A stretch of 64,000 bases of DNA from a virus. This document shows positions 28,207 through 63,981 of this stretch, piece by piece. The stretch lies in the IMG/VR virus record IMGVR_UViG_3300045988_171858, one strand, 5' to 3'. A model generated the notes under the pieces. The model was not told where the DNA came from and did not search any database. It was given only the letters and a program-made list of their open reading frames with translations. The position numbers and the translations under genes were made by a program. The stretch's first letter is position 1. Each line of letters starts with the position of its first letter.

Positions 28207-28473
28207 CAAATATGTTCAGTATCGTTCGCAAATCGACACCCGGGATTATACCCAGCTCTATATCACTATAGAGTTCAGACTATATCTTCATCCGTATTAA
28301 ACGGAGCGTAACATTTCGAACGCCATAAGCTTGCGTCCTACGCCTCTCGGCTAGTCGTTGAACCTTGAATCCATAAAAGGAAACCTTGGCTGCTGATTGT
28401 CTCGTATGTTGAGAGTTCCCAGCAATTAATTACGTTTGCTATTGTATATTACTATACAAAGGGGCAGTCATTT
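28207..28473 (-). mobile_element. group I intron (family 1, 267 nt, no ORF) in nrdA
   Basis: On the - strand: 5' splice site GGU|AAAUGACUGCCC (P1 GGGU/GCCC), P AAUUGCUGGGAA, Q AAUCAGCAGCC, R GGUUCAACGACUAGCC, S GAAGAUAUAGUCUGAAC, terminal G before GGC. The exon-1 frame stops 2 codons into the intron. Confidence 0.85.
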
Positions 28474-29361
28474 ACCCTGGCTACAAGAAAGTGCACTATA
28501 CTCGATAGATTTAGCATGATAAAGAGCTCCACTGTTTACAGCAGCACCATTTCTGATTGATGCATTGCGCTCTCTTAATTTGGATGAACCAATACCAAGG
28601 CCCGCGCCCAGTGTTGCATATTTACGGGCAGCAGTTGCCGCTTCGCCAATCGAATCGATAGAATCATCAGTTTCAATCAGGACACATGAACTAAAACTAC
28701 GAGTAGGTTTCCTCAAATTTGCAATATGAGGAGTGGGAACATTTACCCGGCCAAGAGACATATTGTCATAATGCTCTTTAACAAAGCTTAGACGATCTGT
28801 ATAAGCATCGCCTTTATCGTTGATAAAGTACATCATAGCTGCAACCATATACGAAACTTGTGGAGTCTCGTAATATTCTTTGGTTTTAGCATTCTTGGCT
28901 AAGTATTTAGCTTCCCATTCAACCGCGCCGGAGATAGAATACATCATATCCCTATTGTGGTCTATTTGTTTATTCAGCCATTCAATTTCTTCTTCAGAAT
29001 ACTTCTCAAGAATAATCTTGTCATAAACACCAAGCTCTGTATTGTGTTTAATAATTTCATGTAAATGTTTAGGCTCAAAATCACCATAAACATATTTGCG
29101 CATATTACAAAGCAAGATGCGGCCGGCAACAATAGCATAATCAGGATGCTCTTCATCAATCAAATTGTTAGCACTGGTTAACAATGCCCCATTGATTTCT
29201 TCGGTAGTGATCCCATCGTAAAACATAATGTTGCTATTGACAGCAATTTCAGAAACAGAAACGTTGTCTAATCCTGCACATACAAAACCAAGAAAGGAAT
29301 TGATACGTTCAGGGTTATAAGGGACAACGTCACCGTTACGTTTGGTAACGTTGAATCCCAT
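28474..29361 (-). CDS. nrdA: ribonucleotide reductase class Ia large subunit, exon 1
   Basis: N-terminal ATP-cone-like region (VTKRNGDVVPYNPERI) and an RNR body ending ...YSALSCSQG. Confidence 0.9.
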
Positions 29362-40683: not shown

Positions 40684-40980
40684 CAAATATGTTCAACCTC
40701 ATTCGCAAGTTGAGGTCCGTTATTAATAACTGCTCTATGTTTCCATAGAAGTTCAGACTATATCATATCCTCCGGCATTATCCGGTAAGGCACCAATAAG
40801 GTGTCTACATAGAGGAATAAATCCACTGTAGAATTCCCATTTTCAGACATCATAAGCTTATGCCTTACGCTTTTCAGCTAGTCGTTGAACCTGTCCGTAG
40901 ACGTGGCTGCTGATTCCCTAAACGGGTTCCAGCAATTAACGGGATTATCATTTGTATATTTCTATACAAAGGCGCCAATG
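40684..40980 (-). mobile_element. group I intron i6 (family 1, ~297 nt) in dnaE
   Basis: Closely resembles the nrdA intron: UUUGUAUAGAAAUAUACAA, P UUAAUUGCUGGAAC, Q GGAAUCAGCAGCC, R GGUUCAACGACUAGCU, S GAUAUGAUAUAGUCUGAAC, 3' end GAACAUAUUUG|. P1 pairs GCGU with GCGC. Confidence 0.75.
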
Positions 40981-41107
40981 ACGCATACCTCGCAAACTCC
41001 AGGAGCTCTTCCCAGAATTGCGCTACTTCTTGTTTATCTTCACCATTGGCCACTGCACCATTGATGAAGTCCTCTCTGAGTGATGCCAGTTTGGCTGCAT
41101 CTTTTTT
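40981..41107 (-). CDS. dnaE: dnaE C-gene exon (KKDAAKLASLREDFINGAVANGEDKQEVAQFWEELLEFARYA)
   Basis: Matches the DnaE 'gKKk...m...F..Ga..nG......if..i..FagY' region. Confidence 0.8.
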
Positions 41108-41839: not shown

Positions 41840-42091
41840 CAGAAATGCAATACAACGGTATCTGGTATTTCTATCAGGATTGGACTATCTCATCACCATA
41901 TCAAATGACTTAGGTGTCGGGCGCTGTATCTGGTAATTAAGAACACTATAGTTCTCCAGTAGTCTCTGCACCTTCTTATGGTGTACCATAAGCTTGGCTC
42001 AGGATTGCCTTATCTTAAATTAAGACTTAGGTTTCCCTGAGTTCACCCGATTTTAACCTAACTGTTTCCAATTAGGGCCCCAGACCGCTTT
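41840..42091 (-). mobile_element. group I intron i3 (family 1-like, 252 nt) in dnaE
   Basis: 5' splice site CCU|AAAGCGG with P1 GCCCU/GGGGC, R GUGCAGAGACUACUGG, S GAUGAGAUAGUCCAAUCC, terminal G before GGACCG. Confidence 0.75.
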
Positions 42092-42338
42092 AGGGCGATA
42101 TGTACTAACAATTACTGCAATATCATGAATCGTTTTGGGTTTACAGGCATTAACAAATCCAGACATACCTGCCTCTTCAAATTGAAAGATACCATAGTTC
42201 CTTTCATTCCAAAGAACCTTATACGCTGCCTCGTTGTCCATTGGTAAATTATACCAATCAATATCAATGCCGTGACGCTTCTTAATCAGCTCTCTTGCAA
42301 AGTTAAGAACTGTAAGCGTCTTTAACCCAAGGATGTCT
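42092..42338 (-). CDS. dnaE: dnaE C-gene exon (DILGLKTLTV...GIFQFEEAGMSGF...VSTYRP)
   Basis: Contains the DnaE motifs 'KmDfLGLk.L' (completed across the splice junction) and 'GvFQlES.gm'. The frame was checked against ORF 42053..42241. Confidence 0.85.
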
Positions 42339-43547: not shown

Positions 43548-43800
43548 CGTTTATGTTCAGTATAGGTCGTTAATCTATACCCGGTACAAAACCAGCTCTA
43601 TGTCGCCATAGAGACCAGACTATCTCATCACCATGTCCATGAGGATTTAGGTGCTCTGCGCTTCGAACCACTTGGCCCTACATAATAGTCGTTACACGTC
43701 CTTCGCTTTCGCAAAGTTTCGCACGGTATTGTCTTCTAGAGAGTTTCACCGTTTTCACAGAGTTTTCTGTTGTCAATTTCTTGACAAAGGGACTATTTTA
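43548..43800 (-). mobile_element. group I intron i1 (family 1-like, 253 nt) in dnaE
   Basis: 5' splice site GGAU|UAAAAUAGUCC (P1 GGAU/GUCC), R GUGUAACGACUAUUAUG, S GAUGAGAUAGUCUGGUC, 3' end GAACAUAAACG|AUU. Splicing gives GGGFPD|IDSDVE (the PDxDxD catalytic motif). Confidence 0.8.
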
Positions 43801-44061
43801 ATCCGGGAAGCCGCCACCAACAGTATGAACCTTACCGGTCGGCGGGGTTGTTACGATTCCGAGTAGATAAGCAATAGAAGAATTAGCCTCATTATCCTCA
43901 ATATTTCTAACACTCGCATTATACAGATTCAAATAATACGAATCGATATGATGCAATTCACAATGATTCAATTCGAACATAATATTTGCTTTATGCTCTT
44001 TGAACCAATCGGTATCAGAATAAGAAAGAACTAACTCTCTTAAGTTTTTATGCTCAGCCAT
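43801..44061 (-). CDS. dnaE: dnaE C-gene exon 1 (divergent duplicate of the palm segment)
   Basis: The likely start is the ATG at 44061, which overlaps the upstream stop (AAATGGCTGA). It ends ...SSIAYLLGIVTTPPTGKVHTVGGGFPD. The ORF track opens at 44145. Confidence 0.6.
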
Positions 44062-56612: not shown

Positions 56613-58151
56613 TTATTCCTGACGGTCAATATAAAGGGCATCCAAGAAATCTTTCTCAAAAGAGAATACCGAAGCAGTATGTTTTTTAGTGCCATTGGAG
56701 AATTCTTTAACAAGGCCGACGGACAAATGGACTTTGCCGCCTTCCTCGTAAACATTTGTAGTCCACATTTTGTAACCGGAAGGATTGTCCGCAATAAACA
56801 TTTCAGCAAATTTGTCTATCGCCGCATATAGCTCTTGATCTTCATCATCACTATCACGCCCGTAAGGCCATCGGTAATTGATTGGAAGATTTTTAGCCAT
56901 AATGCAGATATCTTTATAGCTCAATCCGGTTGGGTCAAAGATATCCTTGTCCATTTTTAAATCCAATTCACCGGCAACCAATTTATCCCAAAGCTTACAC
57001 TTATCGTCAAAATAGGAATGCAAAATGATATCTGGATTGAACAATACCGAAATGTCACTATTAATACGAATTGCGTAGTCAATGATGCCCTTTTCGGAAG
57101 GCGTATATTCACGGCGTTCTTTGACAATGTCAAGACATTTTTTACGACTCTTAGAATCAACCTTCGAGTAATGGCGGGCAGTGAAATCAAAGACTTTACG
57201 CTTGCCAAGGGTAGAATACTCAAATTTAGAGTCATCAGCTTTGGGATAGAAGTATTGCGTCTTTTTATAATTCAAGTAGAGGCCGCCCTTGTTTAAGGCT
57301 TTTTCAAATTCAGCATAAATAGCCTTAATATCATGTTCCCTGCCGGCAAGAATTAAATCATCCACATATACATAAACCCGCGAAGATGTAACACCCGCCA
57401 TAGCCTTATCAAAGTGATGAAAGATCGTATTGTACAAATGGTAATTCGCCAACTCATTCGCATATCTCGCACCAGTAGGAACGGCACCATTGTGAAAGAG
57501 GCAACTCAAAAATGCCCACAATCCAATTTCAAGGCGCTCAAACTTTTTGTGGTCTTCCAGTTCGAATTTGCATTCGCTGAACAACGGAAGATTTTTAATC
57601 AAAAATGTTTTAGGTGCAAGCTGCATTACCTTTTCAAATCTTACAGATTTAAAGAAGGCAGAAATATCCGACTTAATAACCATTTCATTGTAATTATTAG
57701 TCGCTACATGATTTGTATTGTGGATATTGTGCATAAACCGTAAATTTGGAGTCATCCAACGTAAGGTATTCCGAATACGATTATGAGCCCGTTTAATATT
57801 CTCACAATCATCTTCAGAAATCTTTTTGTTGATATAACAAACCTCACGGCCTTTATCTGTCACAAAATTACGGAAAAGAAGAGTGTTATTGCAATTACCG
57901 ACAAAGTCAGCAAGAGTTTTAACCATTCTTGAGTATTCCTCAAAATCCGGAGTCAACAAGCCATTTACACCATTAAGGGATTCGATTGCCTTCAGGACAT
58001 CTTCCTTAGGTGTCTTGTTAAAAAGTTTCTCCGGGAATGTGGAATCAATATCGCATTCACCATCTTCAATTTTTTTGATGATGTCTAAAAATGTTTGGGC
58101 CAAATAAACAATTGGCGTAATGAACTCTAAATGAATATCTACTGCGTCCAT
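56613..58151 (-). CDS. reverse transcriptase (512 aa, unclassified lineage)
   Basis: RT motifs A (IKSDISAFFKSV), B (GAVPTGARYANELAN), C (VYVYVDDLILAG) and E (LYLNYKKTQ). Confidence 0.85.
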   Translation of the reverse strand: MDAVDIHLEFITPIVYLAQTFLDIIKKIEDGECDIDSTFPEKLFNKTPKEDVLKAIESLNGVNGLLTPDFEEYSRMVKTLADFVGNCNNTLLFRNFVTDKGREVCYINKKISEDDCENIKRAHNRIRNTLRWMTPNLRFMHNIHNTNHVATNNYNEMVIKSDISAFFKSVRFEKVMQLAPKTFLIKNLPLFSECKFELEDHKKFERLEIGLWAFLSCLFHNGAVPTGARYANELANYHLYNTIFHHFDKAMAGVTSSRVYVYVDDLILAGREHDIKAIYAEFEKALNKGGLYLNYKKTQYFYPKADDSKFEYSTLGKRKVFDFTARHYSKVDSKSRKKCLDIVKERREYTPSEKGIIDYAIRINSDISVLFNPDIILHSYFDDKCKLWDKLVAGELDLKMDKDIFDPTGLSYKDICIMAKNLPINYRWPYGRDSDDEDQELYAAIDKFAEMFIADNPSGYKMWTTNVYEEGGKVHLSVGLVKEFSNGTKKHTASVFSFEKDFLDALYIDRQE

Positions 58152-58206: not shown

Positions 58207-58815
58207 TTAGATAATTGCAATGTTTTTCAGAACAACTTCAACAGTCGGCATTGGAAGACAATTGAAATTAATACGAGCAGGAATAGAATCCGGTTGGCTC
58301 ATAAACGAGCATAACCAGTTGTGTCCAACAAGGGCAGCAGTATCATTTGCCACCAAGAATTGTTCTTCCAGAGCTTCATCGGTATCTGCCTCTGCACAAG
58401 AATACAGCTTAACTTCTTCTTCCTGAGTCAGAGTTTCCGGAGACATAGAAAAGAATTTCAATCTCCAGAATTCTTCATTTGTTGCTCTTCCATACGGCGT
58501 TGCAAACAGTTGGCCATGAGCCAGTTCATTGCCAATATCGACAATCCATCCGCTCATACTGAGAGAGTGGACCGCGCGGCGGGCATTTTGATTGTCCACC
58601 AAATTGAACACCACAACTTTATCGCAGTGTTCAATCATGCTGTTCAGAACACCAATATAGGTGAAATGGGCCGGATCAGAATTGGATTTCATTGTCAAAT
58701 ATTTATCCAGATATTGAACTTCAATATCCTTCATTACAGGGCCGTAACGCAAAGCCATAACTTCTGCTTTGTTACTGCCAATGTCCGGCTCAATAAAGTT
58801 CTGCCGAATCAAGTT
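58207..58815 (-). CDS. E1-like (ThiF/MoeB family) adenylyltransferase, exon 2
   Basis: Begins NLIRQNFIEPDIGSNKAEV, which is the second half of the 'D.D.V..sNL.RQ.....diG..Ka' motif. Confidence 0.75.
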   Translation of the reverse strand, partial: NLIRQNFIEPDIGSNKAEVMALRYGPVMKDIEVQYLDKYLTMKSNSDPAHFTYIGVLNSMIEHCDKVVVFNLVDNQNARRAVHSLSMSGWIVDIGNELAHGQLFATPYGRATNEEFWRLKFFSMSPETLTQEEEVKLYSCAEADTDEALEEQFLVANDTAALVGHNWLCSFMSQPDSIPARINFNCLPMPTVEVVLKNIAII

Positions 58816-60044
58816 CTTAGGTTCGCTTATTGTTACTCTTTGCCATTGATAAAAAGTTTTTATACTTTCTATCCAAATATATCTTAGAGTCTAAATAAAG
58901 ATAATTTAAAACTTTCAAAACATTGTCATTGCCAGATAAGGACAATTCATAACAACAGTTTTCTGTATTAAATCTCTTTTTAAGTTTTTTAGAAGTGGAA
59001 AATCCCATTGAGTTGAAAATCCCCATCAGGCCCAGAAGAAATTCTTCTGTTCCACATATCGTCATTGATGACCTGTAATAACCGTCATTATGAAGATATT
59101 TTCCAAAAGATCCATCGCCATCTATATAGCCTCTTATAAAATGCCTATAAAGAGAGCTATCGATTTCTGGGATTCTAAAGTTCACCGTTTTGTCTCTTAC
59201 AAAACCTAAAGACCTTAAACTGGAAATCATTTCCTTTGTCCCGAATGCGAATCTAGCAAACTTTGATTCTTTATCTAAGCTAAAAGAATTTCCAGTATAA
59301 AATTTTATACCCTTATTTATACCAATACTGCTTCTAATCTTTTCGATAATATCAATATCTTTAGACGATAGCGATATTATTATTTCCTTGTCAGAAACAT
59401 GACCGTCAGCAGCTATGAACCCAAGGGTATAGGCCTTTTCTTCAGTGTCAATTGAGGAAAAGTATTGAGGATCTTCGTAATTCTTATGGTTATAGTTGTA
59501 TCTTCCAGATAGATTATGCCTTCTAGCGAATGCATTTACATTTACTAAGGAACATCCGTATTTTCGGGCAACATCAATACTAGGAATGTTATTGCATATA
59601 TCTATCATCATGCAAATATTCTTAGATGACATATGCTTAAATCCAAGCTCTTTTATCCTTCTTTCTGCTGTTCTTTCCGAAACATCAAAAAACTTAGAAA
59701 CAAGACTCTTGTCTATATAACCATTGTAAGAGTTATTTTTAATGTACTCTAAAATATTTTGTTTTATTTTCATGTGTGCCCTAATAAAATTAATCAAGTC
59801 TATTTGACATGAAAAACATTATACGACACTATTTGGCAAATGGCAAGGTCGTTTCTGTTCCGCCTTGCTCTGTATCTCATATATGCATATTTCCGATACA
59901 GTACAGACTATCGCTTCACTATAAAAGTGTTCACCCGCATTAGTCGTTCACGCTGCACGAGAATGATCTCTGCTTGCGCCTTGTCTTCTGTTATGCCAGA
60001 GGTCCAAGTCAATTAGGGCAAATTTATACACGGCCGGTTAGAGA
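58816..60044 (-). mobile_element. group I intron (1229 nt) with LAGLIDADG ORF in the E1-like gene
   Basis: The core lies at the 5' end, with R GCGUGAACGACUAAUGCGG and S GAAGCGAUAGUCUGUAC. The ORF occupies the 3' kb. Terminal G at 58816. Splicing gives DGDTVNLN|NLIRQ. Confidence 0.75.
58817..59797 (-). CDS. LAGLIDADG homing endonuclease (326 aa, double motif, N-terminal HTH-like region)
   Basis: The two LAGLIDADG motifs are AYTLGFIAADGHVS and FIRGYIDGDGSFG. The stop codon ends 1 nt before the inferred 3' splice site. Confidence 0.8.
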   Translation of the reverse strand: MINFIRAHMKIKQNILEYIKNNSYNGYIDKSLVSKFFDVSERTAERRIKELGFKHMSSKNICMMIDICNNIPSIDVARKYGCSLVNVNAFARRHNLSGRYNYNHKNYEDPQYFSSIDTEEKAYTLGFIAADGHVSDKEIIISLSSKDIDIIEKIRSSIGINKGIKFYTGNSFSLDKESKFARFAFGTKEMISSLRSLGFVRDKTVNFRIPEIDSSLYRHFIRGYIDGDGSFGKYLHNDGYYRSSMTICGTEEFLLGLMGIFNSMGFSTSKKLKKRFNTENCCYELSLSGNDNVLKVLNYLYLDSKIYLDRKYKNFLSMAKSNNKRT

Positions 60045-60344
60045 ATTCAGGTTAACCGTGTCGCCGTCCACAAGGATCAAAGAGAACTTGTGTGACAGCA
60101 AATTCTTGCGCTTCATGTCATTGATGGTTTTAGCCAGCTTTGGAATCAGCCAAGAGCCTGTTCCGCCGCAACCAACCACAACAATTTTATCCAAAAGCCT
60201 AAAGGTTCGTGCAGATTCTTCACCGGAAAGCCTTTCCATCAGCTTTCCCGATTCATATTCTTCCACGCCTTTTTGATGAGCGTCAATTTCTTCCTGAGTA
60301 GAAAGGAACTCGATGATCTTTCCACGAATAGATGTTCTTTCCAT
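60045..60344 (-). CDS. E1-like (ThiF/MoeB family) adenylyltransferase, exon 1
   Basis: ATG at 60344 (AAGGAAAA SD) lies 14 nt after the JAB stop. Rossmann loop KIVVVGCGGTGSW. Ends LVDGDTVNLN. Confidence 0.75.
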
Positions 60345-60357
60345 TAATGATTTTCCT

Positions 60358-61284
60358 TTAAAATTTTTCCAGATAAGCAGCAATACGCTCAGGCAGGCAT
60401 AAATATTTAATGCCGTGAGCATCAAGCTCTTTCGACAACGGATTACTGCTCGTAATAAACGAGTCTTCTACGGCAAAAATAGAGGATGCAAGCGCAATAC
60501 ACAATGCTTTTGAAGGGTCTGCAATTTTATCAATACCGCTTCTCTCACCGGAGTGGATATCCGAAATTGATTCTACCAAATTCGACATAAAAATTTGCAA
60601 GCCGGACGAGAATACGCGGTACGGATGACCTTCAGGCAGCTCGATCGCATTGATAAAATCAGAAGCGGCAGCTTCAATTTGTTTAAACTCTTCATCGGCA
60701 TACAGAAGAGTGTCATATGGTTTATAAAAACCGCGAAGAATAGACGAAATCCAATGATACTTCGCTTTGTCCGCAGCTGCCTCGTTCCCGAGGGTCCAGT
60801 TATCCTCTACATCGCTAGGAGTTACAACTTTAGCATTTGTACCACCAGCAACATTATTCCAATGATCATAGTGGCCATAGTAAGGATAATCCCCATAGCC
60901 GGCGTAGTAATCATAATCTTCAACATCGCCGCCATAATAGTAGTCTTTGACTTTGGAGACGTTTGCCGCTGGCTTGCCGCCCGTGCTAGGAAACCCTTTC
61001 GATTTTGTCTTGTCATAATTGCCATACGCTCCATAGTTATAGACCTTAGCTTTAACTTTTGCATAGTCTTCTTCGGGAATTTCGAACAAGAATTCGCAAC
61101 CTTCGGTAAATTCGAAGATGTCTTCCAGAGCCAAAGGAATCAATGCATCAGCACAGCAAACGCGTTGAACGGTTTTATATGTAAAGGTATTGTCGGCAGT
61201 ATTGTTTACCAAATTGCCAAATACAAACGAGTAAATGCCGTGTTTGCCTTTCTCGTCTGAGTTGTCTGTGCCGGAATAGAATGC
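60358..61284 (-). CDS. JAB/JAMM-domain protein, exon 2 (rest of the JAMM motif, Tyr/Gly/Asp-rich linker, C-terminal domain)
   Basis: The frame extended upstream of the ORF-track start reads AFYSGTDNSDEKGKHGIYSFVFGNL.., supplying the Sx2D part of the motif. Confidence 0.75.
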   Translation of the reverse strand, partial: AFYSGTDNSDEKGKHGIYSFVFGNLVNNTADNTFTYKTVQRVCCADALIPLALEDIFEFTEGCEFLFEIPEEDYAKVKAKVYNYGAYGNYDKTKSKGFPSTGGKPAANVSKVKDYYYGGDVEDYDYYAGYGDYPYYGHYDHWNNVAGGTNAKVVTPSDVEDNWTLGNEAAADKAKYHWISSILRGFYKPYDTLLYADEEFKQIEAAASDFINAIELPEGHPYRVFSSGLQIFMSNLVESISDIHSGERSGIDKIADPSKALCIALASSIFAVEDSFITSSNPLSKELDAHGIKYLCLPERIAAYLEKF

Positions 61285-61590
61285 CTTTTTACTATTCCTC
61301 TTACGTTTAGGTTCGACTAACCTAAATCCGCCCTTTCGGTATTGAGATTGTTACGTCATCTCGCGGTGTGGGACTATATCATCACTGATTGTTATCAGTG
61401 CCTTGCGCTTCGGGGCACATCCCTACTCTACTCGATTCTATGTAATTAATTACAAAGTCTTTCGATAGTCTCTGATCGTCCCTTACAGATAAATTATATT
61501 CATCTATTAAGGTTTCGATGCTGATTGCCCTAGACAATTTGTCCTTAAGGGTTTCCAGCAATTCACAAGGTTTTAAATGGGCACATGTTT
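61285..61590 (-). mobile_element. group I intron (family 1, 306 nt, no ORF) in the JAB gene
   Basis: 5' splice site GGU|AAACAUG, P GAAUUGCUGGAAAC, Q GGCAAUCAGCAUC, R GAUCAGAGACUAUCG, S GAUGAUAUAGUCCCAC, 3' end AGUAAAAAG|GCA. Confidence 0.85.
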
Positions 61591-62058
61591 ACCCATTGTA
61601 TGATGTGAGTGTGATGTCAATACCAACACTTTATTAGGGTCATCATACCAACCGCCAGTTCTTTGATAAGTGATAGACGCACCGGCAACTTCTTGTTCTG
61701 GGACCTCAACGAGATACTTCTGCTCTTCTTTATCCCACCAGATTTGGGCCATCACTTCATTTTTGTTAGTTTCATAAATCTTGCGATAGAAACGGATAAT
61801 TCCGTAGAACAATTCGCCAGGAATCTTTGGAATTTCCAATGATTGGGTGAAACTTTCAGACATCTGAGGCATACCAATCATTTTGGTTTTAAAGCTTTCT
61901 GCCTTAATCCAGAAATCACCAATAGTGGCGCGGACCAGTTTGTAGACACCATCTTCAGCGACAATAGAATCGCCATCTTCAGCTTCTTCTTTCGTCTTTA
62001 CAATCTGCGGCACACGAAAATCCATTTCGGCCATCAGGTCTTCAATGCTTAAACTCAT
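61591..62058 (-). CDS. JAB/JAMM-domain protein, exon 1
   Basis: Conserved Glu (KNEVMAQIWW) and HSHHTMG at the exon end. The frame stops 5 codons into the intron. Confidence 0.8.
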
Positions 62059-62089
62059 AATATTTTTCCTTTAATCTGTGAAACAAAAA

Positions 62090-62809
62090 TTACATCATAA
62101 CGCCGCCAACGAGACATTGATATGAGTCCAGGATTTCAGAGCTCAAATCGAAATCTTCGTCTTTTTCATACTTCATTGCAAAGTACCGAACAGTTGAATT
62201 TTCAGCAGAACAGTTGGAAGCACTTGGCTTGATTTTATCCCAAATAGCATCAGTAAAATGATACTGGTTATGCAGGTCGCCGTTAAATATCGAACCAAAG
62301 AAGATTTGCGGCAATTGCTCAATATCAAAGAGGTCGCCTCTCTTCATGATTTCATTAACGGAGTCTTCATTCCGGCCCCAACAAACCCCATAAGAGGGGT
62401 TGTAGTTGTTCATCTTTAAATCCCAAAGTTTTGTGCTTGGATTGATTTCATTTCCATCGCAGATAAAGATAGAGCTTTTCTCACGCAAGAAGTTACCGTT
62501 TGCACTTGCAACGGCCTTCATAACGATGCCTGGAAGTTTAACCTGATATGGTTCACCACCACGATACTGCACTTGGAACGCGCGGGATGGTTGATAAATC
62601 AAGTAGCCCTTGTATTCTGAGTTTTCCCAAATGCGCAGAATATTCTGAGGAATCAAACCTGAATCCTTATTCTCGCCATTGGGACCGGCCAACGCAGCAG
62701 CCGCAGCCTTAGCTGTAACCATTTTTGATGTTCTGCGACCTTGAGTATCGGTAACATGAAGAACAACTTTGTCCTTATTTAGGACTTCAATATTGATTTT
62801 TCCTTGCAT
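62090..62809 (-). CDS. hypothetical protein (239 aa); candidate E2-like partner, C-terminus ..CLVGGVMM
   Basis: Cys in an HPN-like context (NNYNPSYGVCWGRN). Its position is immediately upstream of the JAB and E1-like genes. The fold assignment is unverified. Confidence 0.7.
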   Translation of the reverse strand: MQGKINIEVLNKDKVVLHVTDTQGRRTSKMVTAKAAAAALAGPNGENKDSGLIPQNILRIWENSEYKGYLIYQPSRAFQVQYRGGEPYQVKLPGIVMKAVASANGNFLREKSSIFICDGNEINPSTKLWDLKMNNYNPSYGVCWGRNEDSVNEIMKRGDLFDIEQLPQIFFGSIFNGDLHNQYHFTDAIWDKIKPSASNCSAENSTVRYFAMKYEKDEDFDLSSEILDSYQCLVGGVMM

Positions 62810-62828
62810 TTTTTATTTCCTTTAAAAA

Positions 62829-63452
62829 TTAATAATCGTAGAAATTTCTTGTCGTGAAATACGGGCTCCAGCTATATGAGAAAAATGGCGATGCTGTCCT
62901 TTTGCTATCGTCAGGCTTAAAGTGCTCTTCAAGTTTATATGCAAAAGAGTTCTTAATGCTATCTCTCATGGACTCAAAGGAACTCAAAACCCTTCGTCTT
63001 TTAACGAGAAGCCCGTCGTATATATTTGCACTAGGGTTCATGTCTAGCTCCATTAGATAATAGACGTAATACCTAGTCATACAGTCGGCAACTTCATGGA
63101 CACCCATTTTAATAGGGAGGTTCATTCTTCTCAGGTATGTAAGGCAATCTGTATTTGCATCGTATAAACGGGCACTTAAATTTATATAATACCCATCTAC
63201 TCCTTCGTACATGGCAGTTGCTAGCTCTTGGCTAATAAGATTTCTGCCTGTAGCCGCTCTTGTATCGTCAAATTTCATCGGCACATGGACAGCAGACCCA
63301 ATAAGAATCTTTCTGCGACGATTCATACGAATAGCAAAAACATCAGGAACCACATTAACGAAGTTCTCAATAAGGCCATCGTATTTGGCATCTAGTAGAA
63401 ACCTTGACATAACCAATTTCTGCAATGGATTATGAATATCTAGATCGAACAT
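62829..63452 (-). CDS. hypothetical protein (207 aa)
   Basis: ORF whose start overlaps the upstream gene by 23 nt. Confidence 0.65.
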   Translation of the reverse strand: MFDLDIHNPLQKLVMSRFLLDAKYDGLIENFVNVVPDVFAIRMNRRRKILIGSAVHVPMKFDDTRAATGRNLISQELATAMYEGVDGYYINLSARLYDANTDCLTYLRRMNLPIKMGVHEVADCMTRYYVYYLMELDMNPSANIYDGLLVKRRRVLSSFESMRDSIKNSFAYKLEEHFKPDDSKRTASPFFSYSWSPYFTTRNFYDY

Positions 63453-63981
63453 TTCGACTCCTGTCTATTAAATCAGCAACACGATTCCGACTGTAGCACA
63501 TATTGCTTACGAAATCCTGAAAAGTCAAATTTGCTTTCCGCAATGTTATTACAGGGTGATAATAGATATTCTCTATGCAATGAAAATCGTGGGAAAACAA
63601 ATATACTCCATCATCAGAGATATGGTAGTATATTCTTCTCGCCCCAATTTTTTGCATGATTTCAAACGAAACCGCATTTATTGATTTAGAGCGGATGTGC
63701 ACAAGGTGCAGGTCGTTATCCTTTCTGAAAAACATGATGAAGGATTTAAGTCCCGATATATATATATTCGGGATAACTGCCGGTTCGATTTTAACTGTGG
63801 CGAATACATTTGCAATCGCCCCTGTTTCCCACGCCGAAAATGACGGAGGCGTGATTTTATAATTCTTGCCTAAAAGAACTTCCCCAACCAGACCCAAGTC
63901 CATTTCGTATGGAGTTTCAACACCGGAGCTTTGAATCAGTTTTAACAACATCATTCTTTCATATATTTTATCAAAATCCAT
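63430..63981 (-). CDS. hypothetical protein (183 aa)
   Basis: ORF with GAGGT upstream of its ATG. Confidence 0.65.
   Translation of the reverse strand: MDFDKIYERMMLLKLIQSSGVETPYEMDLGLVGEVLLGKNYKITPPSFSAWETGAIANVFATVKIEPAVIPNIYISGLKSFIMFFRKDNDLHLVHIRSKSINAVSFEIMQKIGARRIYYHISDDGVYLFSHDFHCIENIYYHPVITLRKANLTFQDFVSNMCYSRNRVADLIDRSRNVRSRYS

What the first reader, a model, noticed from the sequence alone, without database searches (positions are those of the whole stretch)
58207..63981. Phage-borne E1-like / JAMM / candidate E2-like cluster (ubiquitin-like-conjugation-type machinery) in the replication arm
Seen in sequence: removing a 306-nt intron gives a 464-aa protein with a complete JAMM signature (KNEVMAQ ... 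HSHHTMG|AFYSGTD, i.e. E..HxHx7Sx2D). A ~302-aa ThiF/MoeB/E1-type protein starts 14 nt downstream. It has the Rossmann loop IVVVGCGGTGSW and the adenylation motif DGDTVNLN|NLIRQNF..DIGSNKAEV, which is contiguous only after intron removal. Three tightly packed ORFs (183, 207 and 239 aa) lie directly upstream. The 239-aa one has a Cys in an HPN-like context (NNYNPSYGVCWG). Established knowledge: E1+JAB (+E2 +Ubl) operons occur in bacteria as Bil/Bub-type antiphage systems, CBASS Cap2/Cap3 and PRTRC cassettes of mobile elements. Inference: here the set is carried by a lytic phage next to a reverse transcriptase, with no recognisable small beta-grasp Ubl gene. It could tag phage or host proteins, or reverse host Ubl-based or CBASS-type defence. 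I do not know of a described function for this arrangement.
Basis: partly seen in the sequence, partly recalled or inferred. Interest (0 to 1): 0.85.

Follow-up and report, generated by a model that had tools for sequence, protein, structure and literature searches.

The report
Phage ubiquitin-like tagging gene cassette
A large uncultured human-associated phage carries what looks like a full ubiquitin-style protein-tagging kit (tag, activating enzyme, candidate carrier enzyme, trimming protease), two of whose genes are split by self-splicing introns; this type of cassette is already known from plasmids, but nobody has tested what it does.

Summary
Removing a 306-nt group I intron (Rfam 74.9 bits) gives a 464-aa JAMM/JAB protein with an intact E..HxHx7Sx2D site. 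Removing a 1229-nt intron that carries a LAGLIDADG endonuclease gives a 302-aa ThiF/E1 protein. Related phages have intron-less genes that run straight across both junctions.

The 239-aa ORF belongs to Pfam Prok-E2_D and has an invariant Asn135...Cys143. A confident AlphaFold model did not match any solved E2 in Foldseek.

It is a 64-aa ORF about 1.1 kb beyond the window end on the same 189-kb contig, ending in an invariant ...TGSKA. Relatives include tandem "poly-tag" proteins sitting upstream of E2_D-JAB-ThiF genes in other phages.

The order tag...E2-JAB-E1 and the best family matches (PRTRC_A, PRTRC_ThiF, both below cut-off) place this as a diverged phage/Firmicutes-type variant of the PRTRC cassette (Iyer et al. 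2006, operon type "6d"). Similar sets occur in cultured Bacillus, Salmonella, Vibrio and Acinetobacter phages.

orf183 and orf207 remain unassigned. The adjacent reverse transcriptase is linked only within this phage lineage. I found no functional study of this cassette type; targets and role are unknown. Novelty: a new variant of a known kind. Interest is moderate to high.

The parts
62090..62809 (-). E2-like protein (orf239, 239 aa), Pfam Prok-E2_D family. Candidate catalytic Cys143 (codon starting at 62383) with Asn135 upstream and N176-x-D178 downstream.
   Evidence: 9 of 12 family members hit PF14460. Nearly all 37 database relatives carry PF14460. The lineage profile hits Bacillus phage WH1 gp214 at 6.6e-14 and the Cytobacillus 'prokaryotic E2 ligase family D protein' at 7.9e-10. 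Invariant residues are G24, P93, N135, C143, G145, N176 and D178. hhalign places N135/C143 on the HPN Asn and catalytic Cys of UBE2D2, weakly (P 0.016-0.019). Foldseek on the AF2 model (pLDDT 83) gave no UBC hit.
61591..62058 (-). JAB/JAMM gene, exon 1 (residues 1-156): JAB-N region, E101, H150, H152.
   Evidence: The NCBIfam PRTRC_A match covers residues 22-188.
61285..61590 (-). Group I intron in the JAB gene (306 nt, phase 0). It sits between HSHHTMG and AFYSGTD.
   Evidence: Rfam RF00028, 74.9 bits. The 5' exon ends in U and the intron ends in G. The intron-less allele occurs in L001, L002 and L003.
60358..61284 (-). JAB/JAMM gene, exon 2 (residues 157-464): S160, D163, a Tyr/Gly/Asp-rich linker and a C-terminal domain of unknown function that canonical PRTRC_A lacks.
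   Evidence: The C-terminal region matched nothing by hhalign. No PDB relative by sequence.
60045..60344 (-). E1/ThiF gene, exon 1 (residues 1-100): Rossmann loop G58-G63, D93, D95.
58816..60044 (-). Intron in the E1 gene (1229 nt, phase 0), with group I hallmarks and a LAGLIDADG homing-endonuclease ORF (58817-59797).
   Evidence: Stop codon 6 codons into the intron. The 5' exon ends in U, the intron ends in G, and there is a GAAGCGAUAGUCU element resembling the group I P7 region. Homologous endonuclease-less introns occur in L005, L006 and L011, and intron-less alleles in L001, L002, L003 and L007. Rfam RF00028 does not recognise it. Endonuclease: Pfam LAGLIDADG_3 and PHROG 4645.
58207..58815 (-). 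E1/ThiF gene, exon 2 (residues 101-302): N-L-I-R104-Q, D174 (VDN), and an invariant Cys240 in an S-C-[AS] motif.
   Evidence: Alignment with 12 relatives, including four PRTRC ThiF proteins. Best NCBIfam hit is PRTRC_ThiF, 75.1 bits.
62829..63452 (-). orf207, unassigned. It occupies the position of the fast-evolving 'middle' protein (PRTRC_F position) just upstream of the E2-like gene.
   Evidence: No hit in Pfam, NCBIfam, PHROGs or PADLOC. 36% identity in L001 and absent or unrecognisable in most relatives. hhalign against PRTRC_E/F and other middle proteins found nothing.
63430..63981 (-). orf183, unassigned, poorly conserved.
56613..58151 (-). Reverse transcriptase (512 aa, YVDD motif) immediately downstream of E1. 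A lineage-specific neighbour, not shown to belong to the system.
   Evidence: Pfam RVT_1 E 2.6e-10. Weak hits to group II, retron and DRT models. Follows E1 in all 11 related contigs but not in the other phages or plasmids examined.

Best explanation
The cluster is the enzyme core of a phage-borne ubiquitin-like (Ubl) protein-conjugation cassette of the PRTRC type (Iyer et al. 2006, operon type '6d'). The gene order on the minus strand is: Ubl (64 aa, about 1.1 kb beyond the window end), then o111, o190, orf183, orf207, then E2-like (orf239), JAB protease and E1.

Proposed mechanism:
1. After both introns self-splice, the E1 adenylates the C-terminal carboxylate of the small tag (...N-R-T-G-S-K-A) with ATP.
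2. The E1 takes the tag as a thioester on Cys240.
3. The E1 passes it to Cys143 of the E2-like protein.
4. The E2-like protein transfers it to an amino group of target proteins.
5. The JAMM protease (E101, H150, H152, S160, D163) cuts after the tag's C-terminal small residue. In relatives this would release single tags from tandem poly-tag precursors and short C-terminal tails. It could also remove tags from targets.

What is shown here: family membership, conservation of catalytic residues, gene order, intron structure, and conservation across phages.

What is inferred: the chemistry, by analogy with CBASS Cap2/Cap3, Bil and Bub; and the role. The cassette sits in the replication and early arm (SpoVG-like, Whirly-like ssDNA-binding protein, RT, RuvC). 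On plasmids it sits beside ParB, SSB, DnaN and helicases. I therefore think it most likely serves the mobile element itself, tagging host or element proteins while the incoming genome establishes and replicates. The targets are unknown.
For: Component identities:
- JAB and E1 score best against PRTRC_A (53.9 bits) and PRTRC_ThiF (75.1 bits). ThiF scores 34.8 and MoeB 13-16.
- orf239 belongs to Pfam Prok-E2_D.
- Plasmid PRTRC cassettes read C - (F or hypothetical) - B - A - ThiF, the same order as in the phage.
- PRTRC_C is Pfam Prok_Ub (E 7.8e-21).

The tag gene:
- The window's own contig (L019, identical over the overlap) carries a 64-aa ORF upstream of the cassette. It is conserved in all relatives with an invariant ...TGSKA end.
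- The C-terminal motif G-[STAN]-K-[GA] occurs in 10 of 2621 six-frame ORFs of the phage loci. All 10 are this gene.
- The same motif occurs in 5 of 1498 ORFs of outside loci. All 5 lie upstream of E2_D/JAB/E1 genes, and two are annotated PRTRC_C.
- A profile of the tag, searched against 1.84 billion proteins, recovered tandem-repeat proteins (P0025 E 1.6e-6). P0025 lies upstream of Prok-E2_D, a 405-aa protein and ThiF on another phage-like contig.
- A profile built only from those repeats finds the phage tag gene as its only significant hits (E 3.4e-6 to 4e-4). It also finds Bacillus phage WH1 gp211 (3.3e-22) and the Cytobacillus di-tag (1.8e-12). The di-tag itself hits Prok_Ub at 1.1e-4.
- The AF2 model of the tag has pLDDT 85, strand-strand-helix-strand-strand order and a flexible tail.

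Catalytic residues are conserved across phage, Firmicutes and proteobacterial versions.

The whole set is syntenic in 11 related 170-188 kb phage contigs. It is also present in cultured phages WH1, Arash, D69 and ME3.
Against: - No biochemical data exist for any PRTRC-type system in the literature I could search.
- NCBIfam scores for the A and ThiF proteins are below the curated cut-offs. The B, C, E, F and ParB models do not hit.
- Foldseek found no UBC fold for the E2-like model and no beta-grasp for the tag model.
- A direct profile comparison of the tag with PRTRC_C is weak (E 0.05; E 0.017-0.14).
- The tag ends in Ala, not Gly.
- The downstream His that Iyer et al. describe as absolutely conserved in 6d E2-like proteins is replaced by N-x-D.
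- The E1 intron is not recognised by Rfam, and splicing was not observed directly.
- The biological role is argued from gene context only.
Confidence: 0.68

Rival explanations
1. The cassette is a defence or competition module carried by the phage, comparable to Bil, Bub or type II CBASS. In this reading it tags proteins of competing phages or plasmids, or triggers abortive infection, rather than helping the phage's own replication.
For: All experimentally studied bacterial E1/E2/Ubl/JAB operons act in anti-phage immunity or stress response (PMC11601603 introduction). The E1 Rossmann region hits PADLOC CBASS E1-E2 models weakly (best 35.8 bits). PRTRC cassettes sit near SIR2, nuclease and methylase genes on some plasmids.
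Against: The JAB and E2-like proteins hit no PADLOC model. The cassette occupies a fixed, syntenic position in the replication arm of all 11 relatives down to 48% E1 identity. It does not look like a variable island. It recurs in unrelated large virulent-type phages.
Confidence: 0.15
2. The main function is counter-defence by deconjugation. In this reading the JAMM protease strips host Bil Ubl tags or cleaves CD-NTase conjugates, and the E1 and E2-like proteins are accessory or decoys.
For: JAB enzymes such as Cap3 reverse conjugation (10.1101/2022.03.31.486616). The phage JAB has an extra C-terminal domain of about 270 aa that could bind foreign substrates.
Against: The JAB is closest to PRTRC_A. 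It always travels with its own Ubl-like, E2-like and E1 genes. Poly-tag precursors in relatives give it a cognate substrate. No similarity to Cap3 or BilC models was detected.
Confidence: 0.08
3. It is a sulfur-carrier or other adenylation pathway of the ThiF/MoeB, QbsCDE or CysO-Mec type. In this reading the small protein is thiocarboxylated for cofactor, nucleoside or DNA modification, and no protein is tagged.
For: ThiF-family E1 plus JAMM plus a small carrier protein is also the make-up of the Qbs and CysO pathways (established knowledge; Iyer et al. 2006 Table 1 row 4a). One poly-tag relative has a faint ThiS hit (E 0.005).
Against: The E1 scores 75 bits on PRTRC_ThiF against 35 on ThiF and 13-16 on MoeB. 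No rhodanese, cysteine desulfurase or sulfur-acceptor enzyme was seen in the neighbourhood. A conserved E2-like protein with an invariant Cys is present. The carrier ends in K-A, K-G or K-S rather than G-G, and occurs as tandem repeats.
Confidence: 0.07

Closest known systems
PRTRC cassette (ParB-Related, ThiF-Related Cassette; NCBIfam TIGR03734-03742), equal to operon type '6d' of Iyer, Burroughs and Aravind 2006 (PMC1779556)
   Same: The four core parts occur in the same order: small Prok_Ub-like tag ... E2 family D, JAB with an N-terminal extra domain, then ThiF-type E1. The best-scoring NCBIfam models for JAB and E1 are PRTRC_A and PRTRC_ThiF. Both are carried by mobile elements next to replication genes. 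Function is untested in both.
   Different: Scores are below the curated cut-offs. No ParB, E or F homologue was detected. The tag ends in Ala (...GSKA) instead of Gly (...GTKG). The conserved His downstream of the E2-like Cys is replaced by N-x-D. The JAB carries a C-terminal extension of about 270 aa. Two genes are interrupted by introns. Unrelated ORFs (o111, o190, orf183, orf207) fill the space between tag and E2. The host element is a large phage, not a plasmid or ICE.
E2_D-JAB-ThiF sets of cultured large phages and Bacillaceae megaplasmids: Bacillus phage vB_BceM_WH1 gp211-216, Salmonella phage Arash gp246-248, Vibrio phage D69 gp303-307, Acinetobacter phage ME3 gp130-139, Cytobacillus plasmid pN497-ZHONG
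   Same: Same subfamily. The E2 profile hits at E 6.6e-14 to 1e-3. JAB is 24-37% and E1 28-36% identical. They share the N-x-D variant of the E2-like protein, the long JAB, and a tag ending in K-G or K-A.
   Different: Several have tandem poly-tags (2, 3 or 5 repeats) where the window phage has a single tag. None has the adjacent reverse transcriptase. Their annotations are 'hypothetical', 'ThiF', 'PRTRC system protein A' or 'structural protein', with no functional study found.
Bil (BilABCD) and Bub anti-phage ubiquitination-like operons
   Same: Separate Ubl, E1, E2 and peptidase genes. Multi-domain or repeated Ubls occur. The expected adenylation, thioester and conjugation chemistry is the same.
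   Different: Different protein families: no PADLOC hit for the JAB or E2-like protein. Bil and Bub are chromosomal defence islands that act against phages, whereas this cassette is encoded by the phage.
Type II CBASS Cap2 (E2-E1 fusion) and Cap3 (JAB)
   Same: A ThiF-type E1 with a catalytic Cys, an E2 Cys and a JAB antagonist. The E1 Rossmann region gives weak hits to Cap2 models.
   Different: Cap2 is a fusion protein and its substrate is the CD-NTase C-terminus, not a dedicated small tag. There is no CD-NTase or effector gene here.
ThiF/MoeB with ThiS/MoaD, and QbsC/D/E or CysO/Mec+ sulfur-carrier systems
   Same: An adenylating E1 fold, a small carrier protein, and in Qbs and CysO a JAMM protease that trims the carrier.
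   Different: These have no E2-like protein, and their carriers end in Gly-Gly and feed sulfur chemistry. Here the matches to ThiF and MoeB models are much weaker than to PRTRC_ThiF, and there are no sulfur-transfer partners.

Membership tests
PRTRC cassette (NCBIfam definition) | ThiF-family protein reaching TIGR03736 cut-off (144.75 bits) | tested here: not met
   Best hit of all models, but only 75.1 bits.
PRTRC cassette (NCBIfam definition) | Protein A (JAB) reaching TIGR03735 cut-off (101.8 bits) | tested here: not met
   It is the only NCBIfam hit, at 53.9 bits, covering residues 22-188 against model positions 19-178 of 192.
PRTRC cassette (NCBIfam definition) | Proteins B, C, E and F recognised by their NCBIfam models | tested here: not met
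   No NCBIfam hit at E<=1 for orf239, orf207, orf183, the 64-aa ORF or the upstream ORFs. hhalign against PRTRC_E/F alignments found nothing.
PRTRC cassette (NCBIfam definition) | ParB-family protein in the cassette | tested here: not met
   No ParB domain among the called genes within 10 kb upstream or downstream to RuvC.
PRTRC cassette (NCBIfam definition) | Gene order C ... B - A - ThiF on one strand | tested here: met
   Phage order: tag, four ORFs, E2_D, JAB, E1. Plasmid cassettes.
Operon type 6d (Iyer et al. 2006) | Small beta-grasp-like protein with a conserved C-terminal Gly | tested here: inconclusive
   A 64-aa ORF with predicted strand-strand-helix-strand-strand order and an invariant ...TGSKA end. 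The Gly at position -4 is conserved but the terminal residue is Ala. The link to Prok_Ub is transitive only. Foldseek found nothing.
Operon type 6d (Iyer et al. 2006) | E2-like protein with a conserved Cys, lacking the classical HPN His, with an absolutely conserved His downstream | tested here: inconclusive
   The Cys is invariant and the classical His is absent, so those two points are met. The downstream His is present in four PRTRC_B proteins but replaced by N176-x-D178 in all phage and Firmicutes-type members.
Operon type 6d (Iyer et al. 2006) | JAB with an extra N-terminal alpha+beta domain (JAB-N) | tested here: met
   About 95 residues precede the catalytic Glu and align with PRTRC_A. 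The exact conserved Arg/Trp pair was not verified.
Operon type 6d (Iyer et al. 2006) | Fast-evolving alpha-helical accessory protein | tested here: inconclusive
   Fast-evolving ORFs (o190, orf183, orf207; a 448-aa protein in L008) occupy that position, but no homology could be shown.
JAMM/JAB metalloprotease | Motif E ... HxH x7 S xx D | tested here: met
   E101, H150, H152, S160 and D163 after splicing. Conserved in 10 relatives. Pfam Prok-JAB 27.1 bits, above the gathering score of 25.
ThiF/E1 adenylating enzymes | Gly-rich nucleotide loop, D-x-D...N-L-x-R-Q, VDN Asp, and a Cys for thioester formation | tested here: met
   G58-G63, D93/D95, R104-Q105, D174 and an invariant C240 in 13 aligned sequences. 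Pfam ThiF 52.3 bits. Thioester formation itself was not tested.
UBC/E2 superfamily | UBC fold | tested here: not met
   The AF2 model (pLDDT 83.2, pTM 0.72) found no UBC or E2 chain in the PDB by Foldseek (best E 0.048, to unrelated folds, TM about 0.1). Profile searches against PDB sequences found none.
UBC/E2 superfamily | Asn (of HPN) followed 8 residues later by the catalytic Cys | tested here: inconclusive
   N135 and C143 are invariant.
Bil / Bub / type II CBASS defence systems | Components recognised by PADLOC models | tested here: not met
   The E1 hits only the Rossmann part of Cap2 models (35.8 bits or less). JAB, E2-like, orf183 and orf207 give no hit.
ThiF/MoeB sulfur-carrier pathway | E1 matching ThiF or MoeB equivalogs, a Gly-Gly carrier, and sulfur-transfer partners | tested here: not met
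   ThiF 34.8 bits against a cut-off of 275. MoeB 13-16 bits against 266-377. The carrier ends in K-A. No rhodanese or desulfurase among the neighbours.
Group I introns | Covariance-model match and splice-site hallmarks | tested here: met
   JAB intron: RF00028 74.9 bits. E1 intron: not recognised by RF00028. It does have U/G splice-site hallmarks, a LAGLIDADG ORF, endonuclease-less homologues and intron-less alleles. Splicing was not observed experimentally.

The most novel reading that the evidence does not exclude
Large phages, and the plasmids that carry PRTRC, encode their own complete ubiquitin-like conjugation cascade. They use it during establishment of the incoming genome to tag host proteins or their own, for takeover or counter-defence. 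The tag's reactive end is an unusual Lys-Ala, Lys-Gly or Lys-Ser, which diGly proteomics would miss. This would be the first virus-encoded Ubl-E1-E2-deconjugase system in prokaryotic viruses shown to act for the virus rather than against it.
Probability: 0.4. Interest if true: 0.85.

Novelty: new variant of a known kind. Interest (0 to 1): 0.6.

Why it matters
Every bacterial ubiquitin-like conjugation system studied so far (type II CBASS, Bil, Bub) defends cells against phages. The PRTRC/6d type was predicted in 2006. I found no functional study of it in the searchable literature.

This work shows three things. A diverged version is a conserved core module of a lineage of about 170-190 kb human-associated phages. 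Equivalent sets, some with polyubiquitin-like tandem tags, sit in cultured Bacillus, Salmonella, Vibrio and Acinetobacter phages. All four parts can now be named, with candidate catalytic residues.

That makes an old open question directly testable in tractable phage-host pairs: what do mobile-element-encoded E1/E2/Ubl/JAB cassettes do? If they act for the phage, it would add an offensive use of ubiquitin-like tagging to the phage-host conflict.

There is also a practical warning. After trypsin digestion the tag would leave a single Ala or Gly on the target Lys, so standard searches would not find it.

Tried and rejected
- I first suspected that orf239 itself was the tag, because it ends ...LVGGVMM and relatives keep a Gly near the end. 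I rejected this once the family proved to be Prok-E2_D and a separate 64-aa tag gene was found.
- A megablast of 56-64 kb against 50,697 phage records found no match. A primase protein search found only distant hits. A crAss-like affiliation was suspected, but Yutin et al. 2021 has no mention of ThiF, JAB, ubiquitin or RT, so the phage family is left open.
- Direct searches of the tag against Pfam Prok_Ub and NCBIfam PRTRC_C gave no hit. hhalign against three PRTRC_C sequences gave E 0.05. A profile built from outside tags did not retrieve the phage tag significantly. Only the chain through the poly-tag repeats worked.
- Foldseek on the tag model against PDB and BFVD, and on the E2-like model against PDB, gave nothing significant.
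- hhalign of o111, o190, orf183, orf207, the L008 448-aa protein and the JAB C-terminal domain against PRTRC_E/F and the 'middle' proteins of other phages found nothing.
- The idea that the RT is a system component was dropped. The Cytobacillus 'reverse transcriptase-like protein' next to ThiF showed no blastp similarity to RT512, and other carriers lack an RT.
- The 'structural protein' labels on Arash gp246 and gp248 come from a 116-protein particle proteome that also contains many enzymes. I do not take them as evidence of packaging.
- Promoter and terminator scans were at chance level.
- Long HEAT, TPR and SprB repeat proteins in the representative search are false positives caused by repeats.

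Full report
**1. What is in the sequence**

All genes from about 24 kb to the window end lie on the minus strand. Read in the direction of transcription, the finding region holds:
- orf183 (63981-63430)
- orf207 (63452-62829)
- orf239 (62809-62090)
- a JAMM/JAB gene in two exons (62058-61591 and 61284-60358)
- a ThiF/E1 gene in two exons (60344-60045 and 58815-58207)
- a 512-aa reverse transcriptase (58151-56613)

Joining the exons gives a 464-aa JAB protein and a 302-aa E1. The JAB protein has E101, H150-S-H152, S160 and D163, which is the full E..HxHx7Sx2D signature. The E1 has G58-C-G-G-T-G63 and D93-G-D-T-V-N-L-N|N-L-I-R-Q. Both introns sit in phase 0, and both unspliced frames run into stop codons within six codons.

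**2. The introns are real**

Rfam calls the 306-nt JAB intron a group I intron (74.9 bits against a gathering score of 50). Four more group I introns lie elsewhere in the window.

Rfam does not recognise the 1229-nt E1 intron. Other evidence supports it. The 5' exon ends in U and the intron ends in G. It contains a GAAGCGAUAGUCU element like the group I P7 region. It also carries a LAGLIDADG homing-endonuclease ORF.

The strongest evidence is comparative. Eleven related viral contigs of 170-188 kb carry the same genes. L001, L002 and L003 have an uninterrupted JAB gene, and L001, L002, L003 and L007 an uninterrupted E1 gene. These align across both junctions without a gap. L005, L006 and L011 carry the same E1 intron without the endonuclease.

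**3. What the proteins are**

- *JAB.* It passes Pfam Prok-JAB (27.1 bits, gathering score 25). Its only NCBIfam hit is PRTRC system protein A (53.9 bits, below the 101.8 cut-off). That match includes the region N-terminal to the catalytic Glu.
- *E1.* It hits Pfam ThiF (52.3 bits). Its best NCBIfam match is PRTRC_ThiF (75.1 bits, cut-off 144.75). This is well ahead of ThiF (34.8), TcdA (30) and MoeB (13-16).
- *orf239.* It has no direct hit, but it belongs to Pfam Prok-E2_D. One database relative carries a precomputed PF14460 hit. Nine of 12 family members hit PF14460 (best E 5.2e-6). The family profile finds Bacillus phage WH1 gp214 (6.6e-14), the Cytobacillus protein that NCBI names 'prokaryotic E2 ligase family D protein' (7.9e-10), and homologues in a Clostridium plasmid and in phages Arash and ME3. 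A wider search returned 37 proteins, nearly all carrying PF14460.

Alignments across phage, Firmicutes and proteobacterial versions show the expected conserved residues:
- an invariant N135...C143-x-G145 in the E2-like protein
- the complete JAMM motif in the JAB
- the adenylation motifs plus an invariant Cys (C240, in an S-C-[AS] motif) in the E1

**4. The cassette and its missing member**

Annotated PRTRC cassettes on plasmids of Azospira, Polaromonas, Rhodanobacter and Pseudomonas read (ParB) - E - C - F or hypothetical - B - A - ThiF. Protein C is Pfam Prok_Ub (E 7.8e-21). The phage order orf239 - JAB - E1 is the B - A - ThiF order.

An exact-protein look-up found the window's own contig (ENA ERZ27262853 k119_141106, 189,299 bp; locus L019). 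It is identical to the window over the overlap. Upstream of orf183 it encodes a SpoVG-like protein, a Whirly-like ssDNA-binding protein, o125, a 64-aa ORF, o111 and o190.

The 64-aa ORF is MSQVRGYIYNGETKTLPNNGTTTVENMLTALKNKYVALRGEGSFDHAVNADGYLVITNRTGSKA. If the window continued, it would lie at 65085-65279. It is conserved in every relative and always ends ...TGSKA.

**5. Is the 64-aa ORF the tag?**

Direct tests were negative or weak:
- no Pfam or NCBIfam hit
- hhalign against three PRTRC_C sequences gave E 0.05
- Foldseek on a confident model (pLDDT 85; strand-strand-helix-strand-strand with a loose tail) found nothing in PDB or BFVD

Four other lines of evidence converge.

(a) *The C-terminal motif is specific.* G-[STAN]-K-[GA] at the C-terminus occurs in 10 of 2621 six-frame ORFs of the phage loci, and all 10 are this gene. 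It occurs in 5 of 1498 ORFs of the outside loci. All 5 are small ORFs upstream of E2_D/JAB/E1 genes, and two are annotated PRTRC_C.

(b) *Relatives are head-to-tail repeats.* Vibrio phage D69 gp307 has three repeats, each ending KTGTKG. The Cytobacillus plasmid protein has two repeats ending AGTKG and hits Prok_Ub at E 1.1e-4. Bacillus phage WH1 gp211 has five repeats.

(c) *A blind search recovers tags in the right context.* A profile of the phage ORF was searched against 1.84 billion proteins. It returned single-domain relatives (...RTGNKA...TGSKA) and tandem-repeat proteins P0025, P0026 and P0035. P0025 lies on a phage-like contig, followed by a 97-aa protein, a 341-aa protein, Prok-E2_D, a 405-aa protein and ThiF. 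P0020 lies in a SpoVG - Whirly - x - tag - ... - E2 - Prok-JAB array.

(d) *The reverse search is clean.* A profile built only from the P0025, P0026 and P0035 repeats finds the phage ORFs as its only significant hits among 2621 ORFs (E 3.4e-6 to 4e-4; 0.04 for the most distant clade). The same profile also finds WH1 gp211 (3.3e-22) and the Cytobacillus di-tag (1.8e-12).

I conclude that this ORF is the tag of the system. Homology to Prok_Ub is supported through intermediates. The reactive end is [TSN]-K-[G/A/S] rather than Gly-Gly. The tandem forms imply cleavage after that small residue, which is a natural job for the JAMM protease.

**6. Weak points**

- A confident AlphaFold model of orf239 (pLDDT 83.2, pTM 0.72, 37-sequence alignment) has a beta-meander, a loop carrying N135 and C143, then helices. 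Foldseek found no E2/UBC structure, and profile searches of PDB sequences found none.
The P value is only 0.016-0.019.
- So 'member of Pfam Prok-E2_D with an invariant Cys in an HPN-like setting' is shown. 'UBC fold' is not.
- The His that Iyer et al. (PMC1779556, Table 1 row 6d) describe as absolutely conserved downstream of the Cys is present in PRTRC_B. In all phage and Firmicutes-type members it is replaced by N176-x-D178.
- No ParB, E or F homologue was detected.
- orf183, orf207, o190 and o111 matched nothing, either by family scans or by profile-profile comparison. They evolve fast.
- The roughly 270-aa C-terminal extension of the JAB, absent from PRTRC_A, is also unassigned.

**7. How it most likely works**

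The chemistry below is inferred by analogy with Cap2/Cap3, Bil and Bub:
1. The introns splice out.
2. The E1 adenylates the tag's C-terminus and forms a thioester on C240.
3. The tag moves to C143 of the E2-like protein and then to target amines.
4. The JAB matures precursors and may reverse conjugation.

None of these steps was tested here.

The role is inferred from context. In all 11 relatives the cassette sits at the same place in the replication arm, between the SpoVG and Whirly genes and the RT and RuvC genes. On plasmids it lies beside ParB, SSB, DnaN, helicases and nucleases. This pattern fits a function for the incoming element better than a variable defence island. The defence and pure counter-defence readings are not excluded.

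The sulfur-carrier reading is unlikely for four reasons: the score ranking of the E1, the presence of the E2-like protein, the absence of sulfur-transfer partners, and the non-Gly-Gly, sometimes tandem, tag.

**8. Comparison with what is known, and novelty**

The system type was predicted in 2006 (operon type 6d). It is encoded in TIGRFAM/NCBIfam (PRTRC) and Pfam (Prok_Ub, Prok-E2_D, Prok-JAB). Phage copies are already in GenBank with partial annotations, for example ME3 'PRTRC system protein A' and 'ThiF'. Full-text searches found no functional study of PRTRC-type systems and no description of phage-encoded ones. Recent work lists only CBASS, Bil and Bub as characterised.

What is added here:
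- the recognition of a diverged phage/Firmicutes-type subfamily
- its tag, including polyubiquitin-like tandem forms and the K-A, K-G or K-S end
- the candidate catalytic residues
- the intron-split genes
- its status as a syntenic core module in a lineage of large human-associated phages

I rate it a new variant of a known kind, with interest 0.6.

Noticed in passing
window 28256-28483, 40733-40990, 41861-42101, 43596-43810, 61352-61600 (all minus strand): Five Rfam group I introns in 64 kb, plus the Rfam-negative E1 intron. Ribonucleotide reductase and DNA polymerase ORFs each match their PHROG families in two separate stretches, which suggests that these genes are also interrupted.
   Followed up: partly
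window 59846-59818 (minus strand): A near-consensus sigma-70-like promoter (TTGCCA, 17-nt spacer, TATAAT; 11 of 12) lies inside the E1 intron just upstream of the LAGLIDADG ORF. It may drive the endonuclease independently. Promoter-like sites overall were at chance frequency.
   Followed up: no
window 56613-58151 (minus strand): A 512-aa reverse transcriptase with a YVDD motif and only weak hits to group II intron, retron and DRT models. It follows the E1 gene in all 11 related phage contigs but in no other carrier of the cassette. Its class and function are unknown.
   Followed up: partly
L019 7400-8670 (same contig, beyond the window end): SpoVG-like (134 aa) and Whirly-like ssDNA-binding (157 aa) genes and an unassigned 125-aa ORF directly precede the tag gene. 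The same SpoVG - Whirly - x - tag array recurs in L001-L011 and L023.
   Followed up: partly
L013 2733-5843 (Acinetobacter phage vB_AbaM_ME3): The ME3 JAB gene is annotated as two pieces (ME3_135 ends ...VVVMDIH; ME3_131 resumes after the S..D motif). Between them lie a strong group I intron (81 bits), a weaker one and a tRNA-Met. The JAMM active-site coding region therefore seems to be an intron insertion site in unrelated phages too.
   Followed up: partly
L016 754-1692 (Bacillus phage vB_BceM_WH1 gp211); L017 2412-3203 (Vibrio phage D69 gp307); L014 2547-2888 (Cytobacillus plasmid): Tandem 'poly-tag' proteins with 5, 3 and 2 repeats, each repeat ending ...GTK(G), lie upstream of E2_D-JAB-ThiF genes. 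WH1 gp211 is annotated 'virion structural protein'.
   Followed up: partly
L018 1519-4539 (Salmonella phage Arash gp248-gp246): The E2_D and E1 homologues are labelled 'structural protein'. The label comes from a particle proteome listing 116 proteins that include RNA polymerase and ribonucleotide reductase (PMC10585845). This shows the proteins are made. It is weak evidence for packaging.
   Followed up: partly
L008 9497-10678 and the E1 genes of L009-L011: In the most distant clade of relatives the E1 is about 90 aa longer at its C-terminus. A tag-family profile gave a non-significant match there (E 0.13), which might hint at a ubiquitin-fold domain.
   Followed up: no
proteins P0039, P0041, P0043, P0045, P0053, P0054: Prok-E2_D relatives from Bacillus subtilis, Priestia, Gottfriedia and Cytobacillus all sit on contigs of 220-247 kb. 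These may be jumbo phages or phage-plasmids.
   Followed up: no
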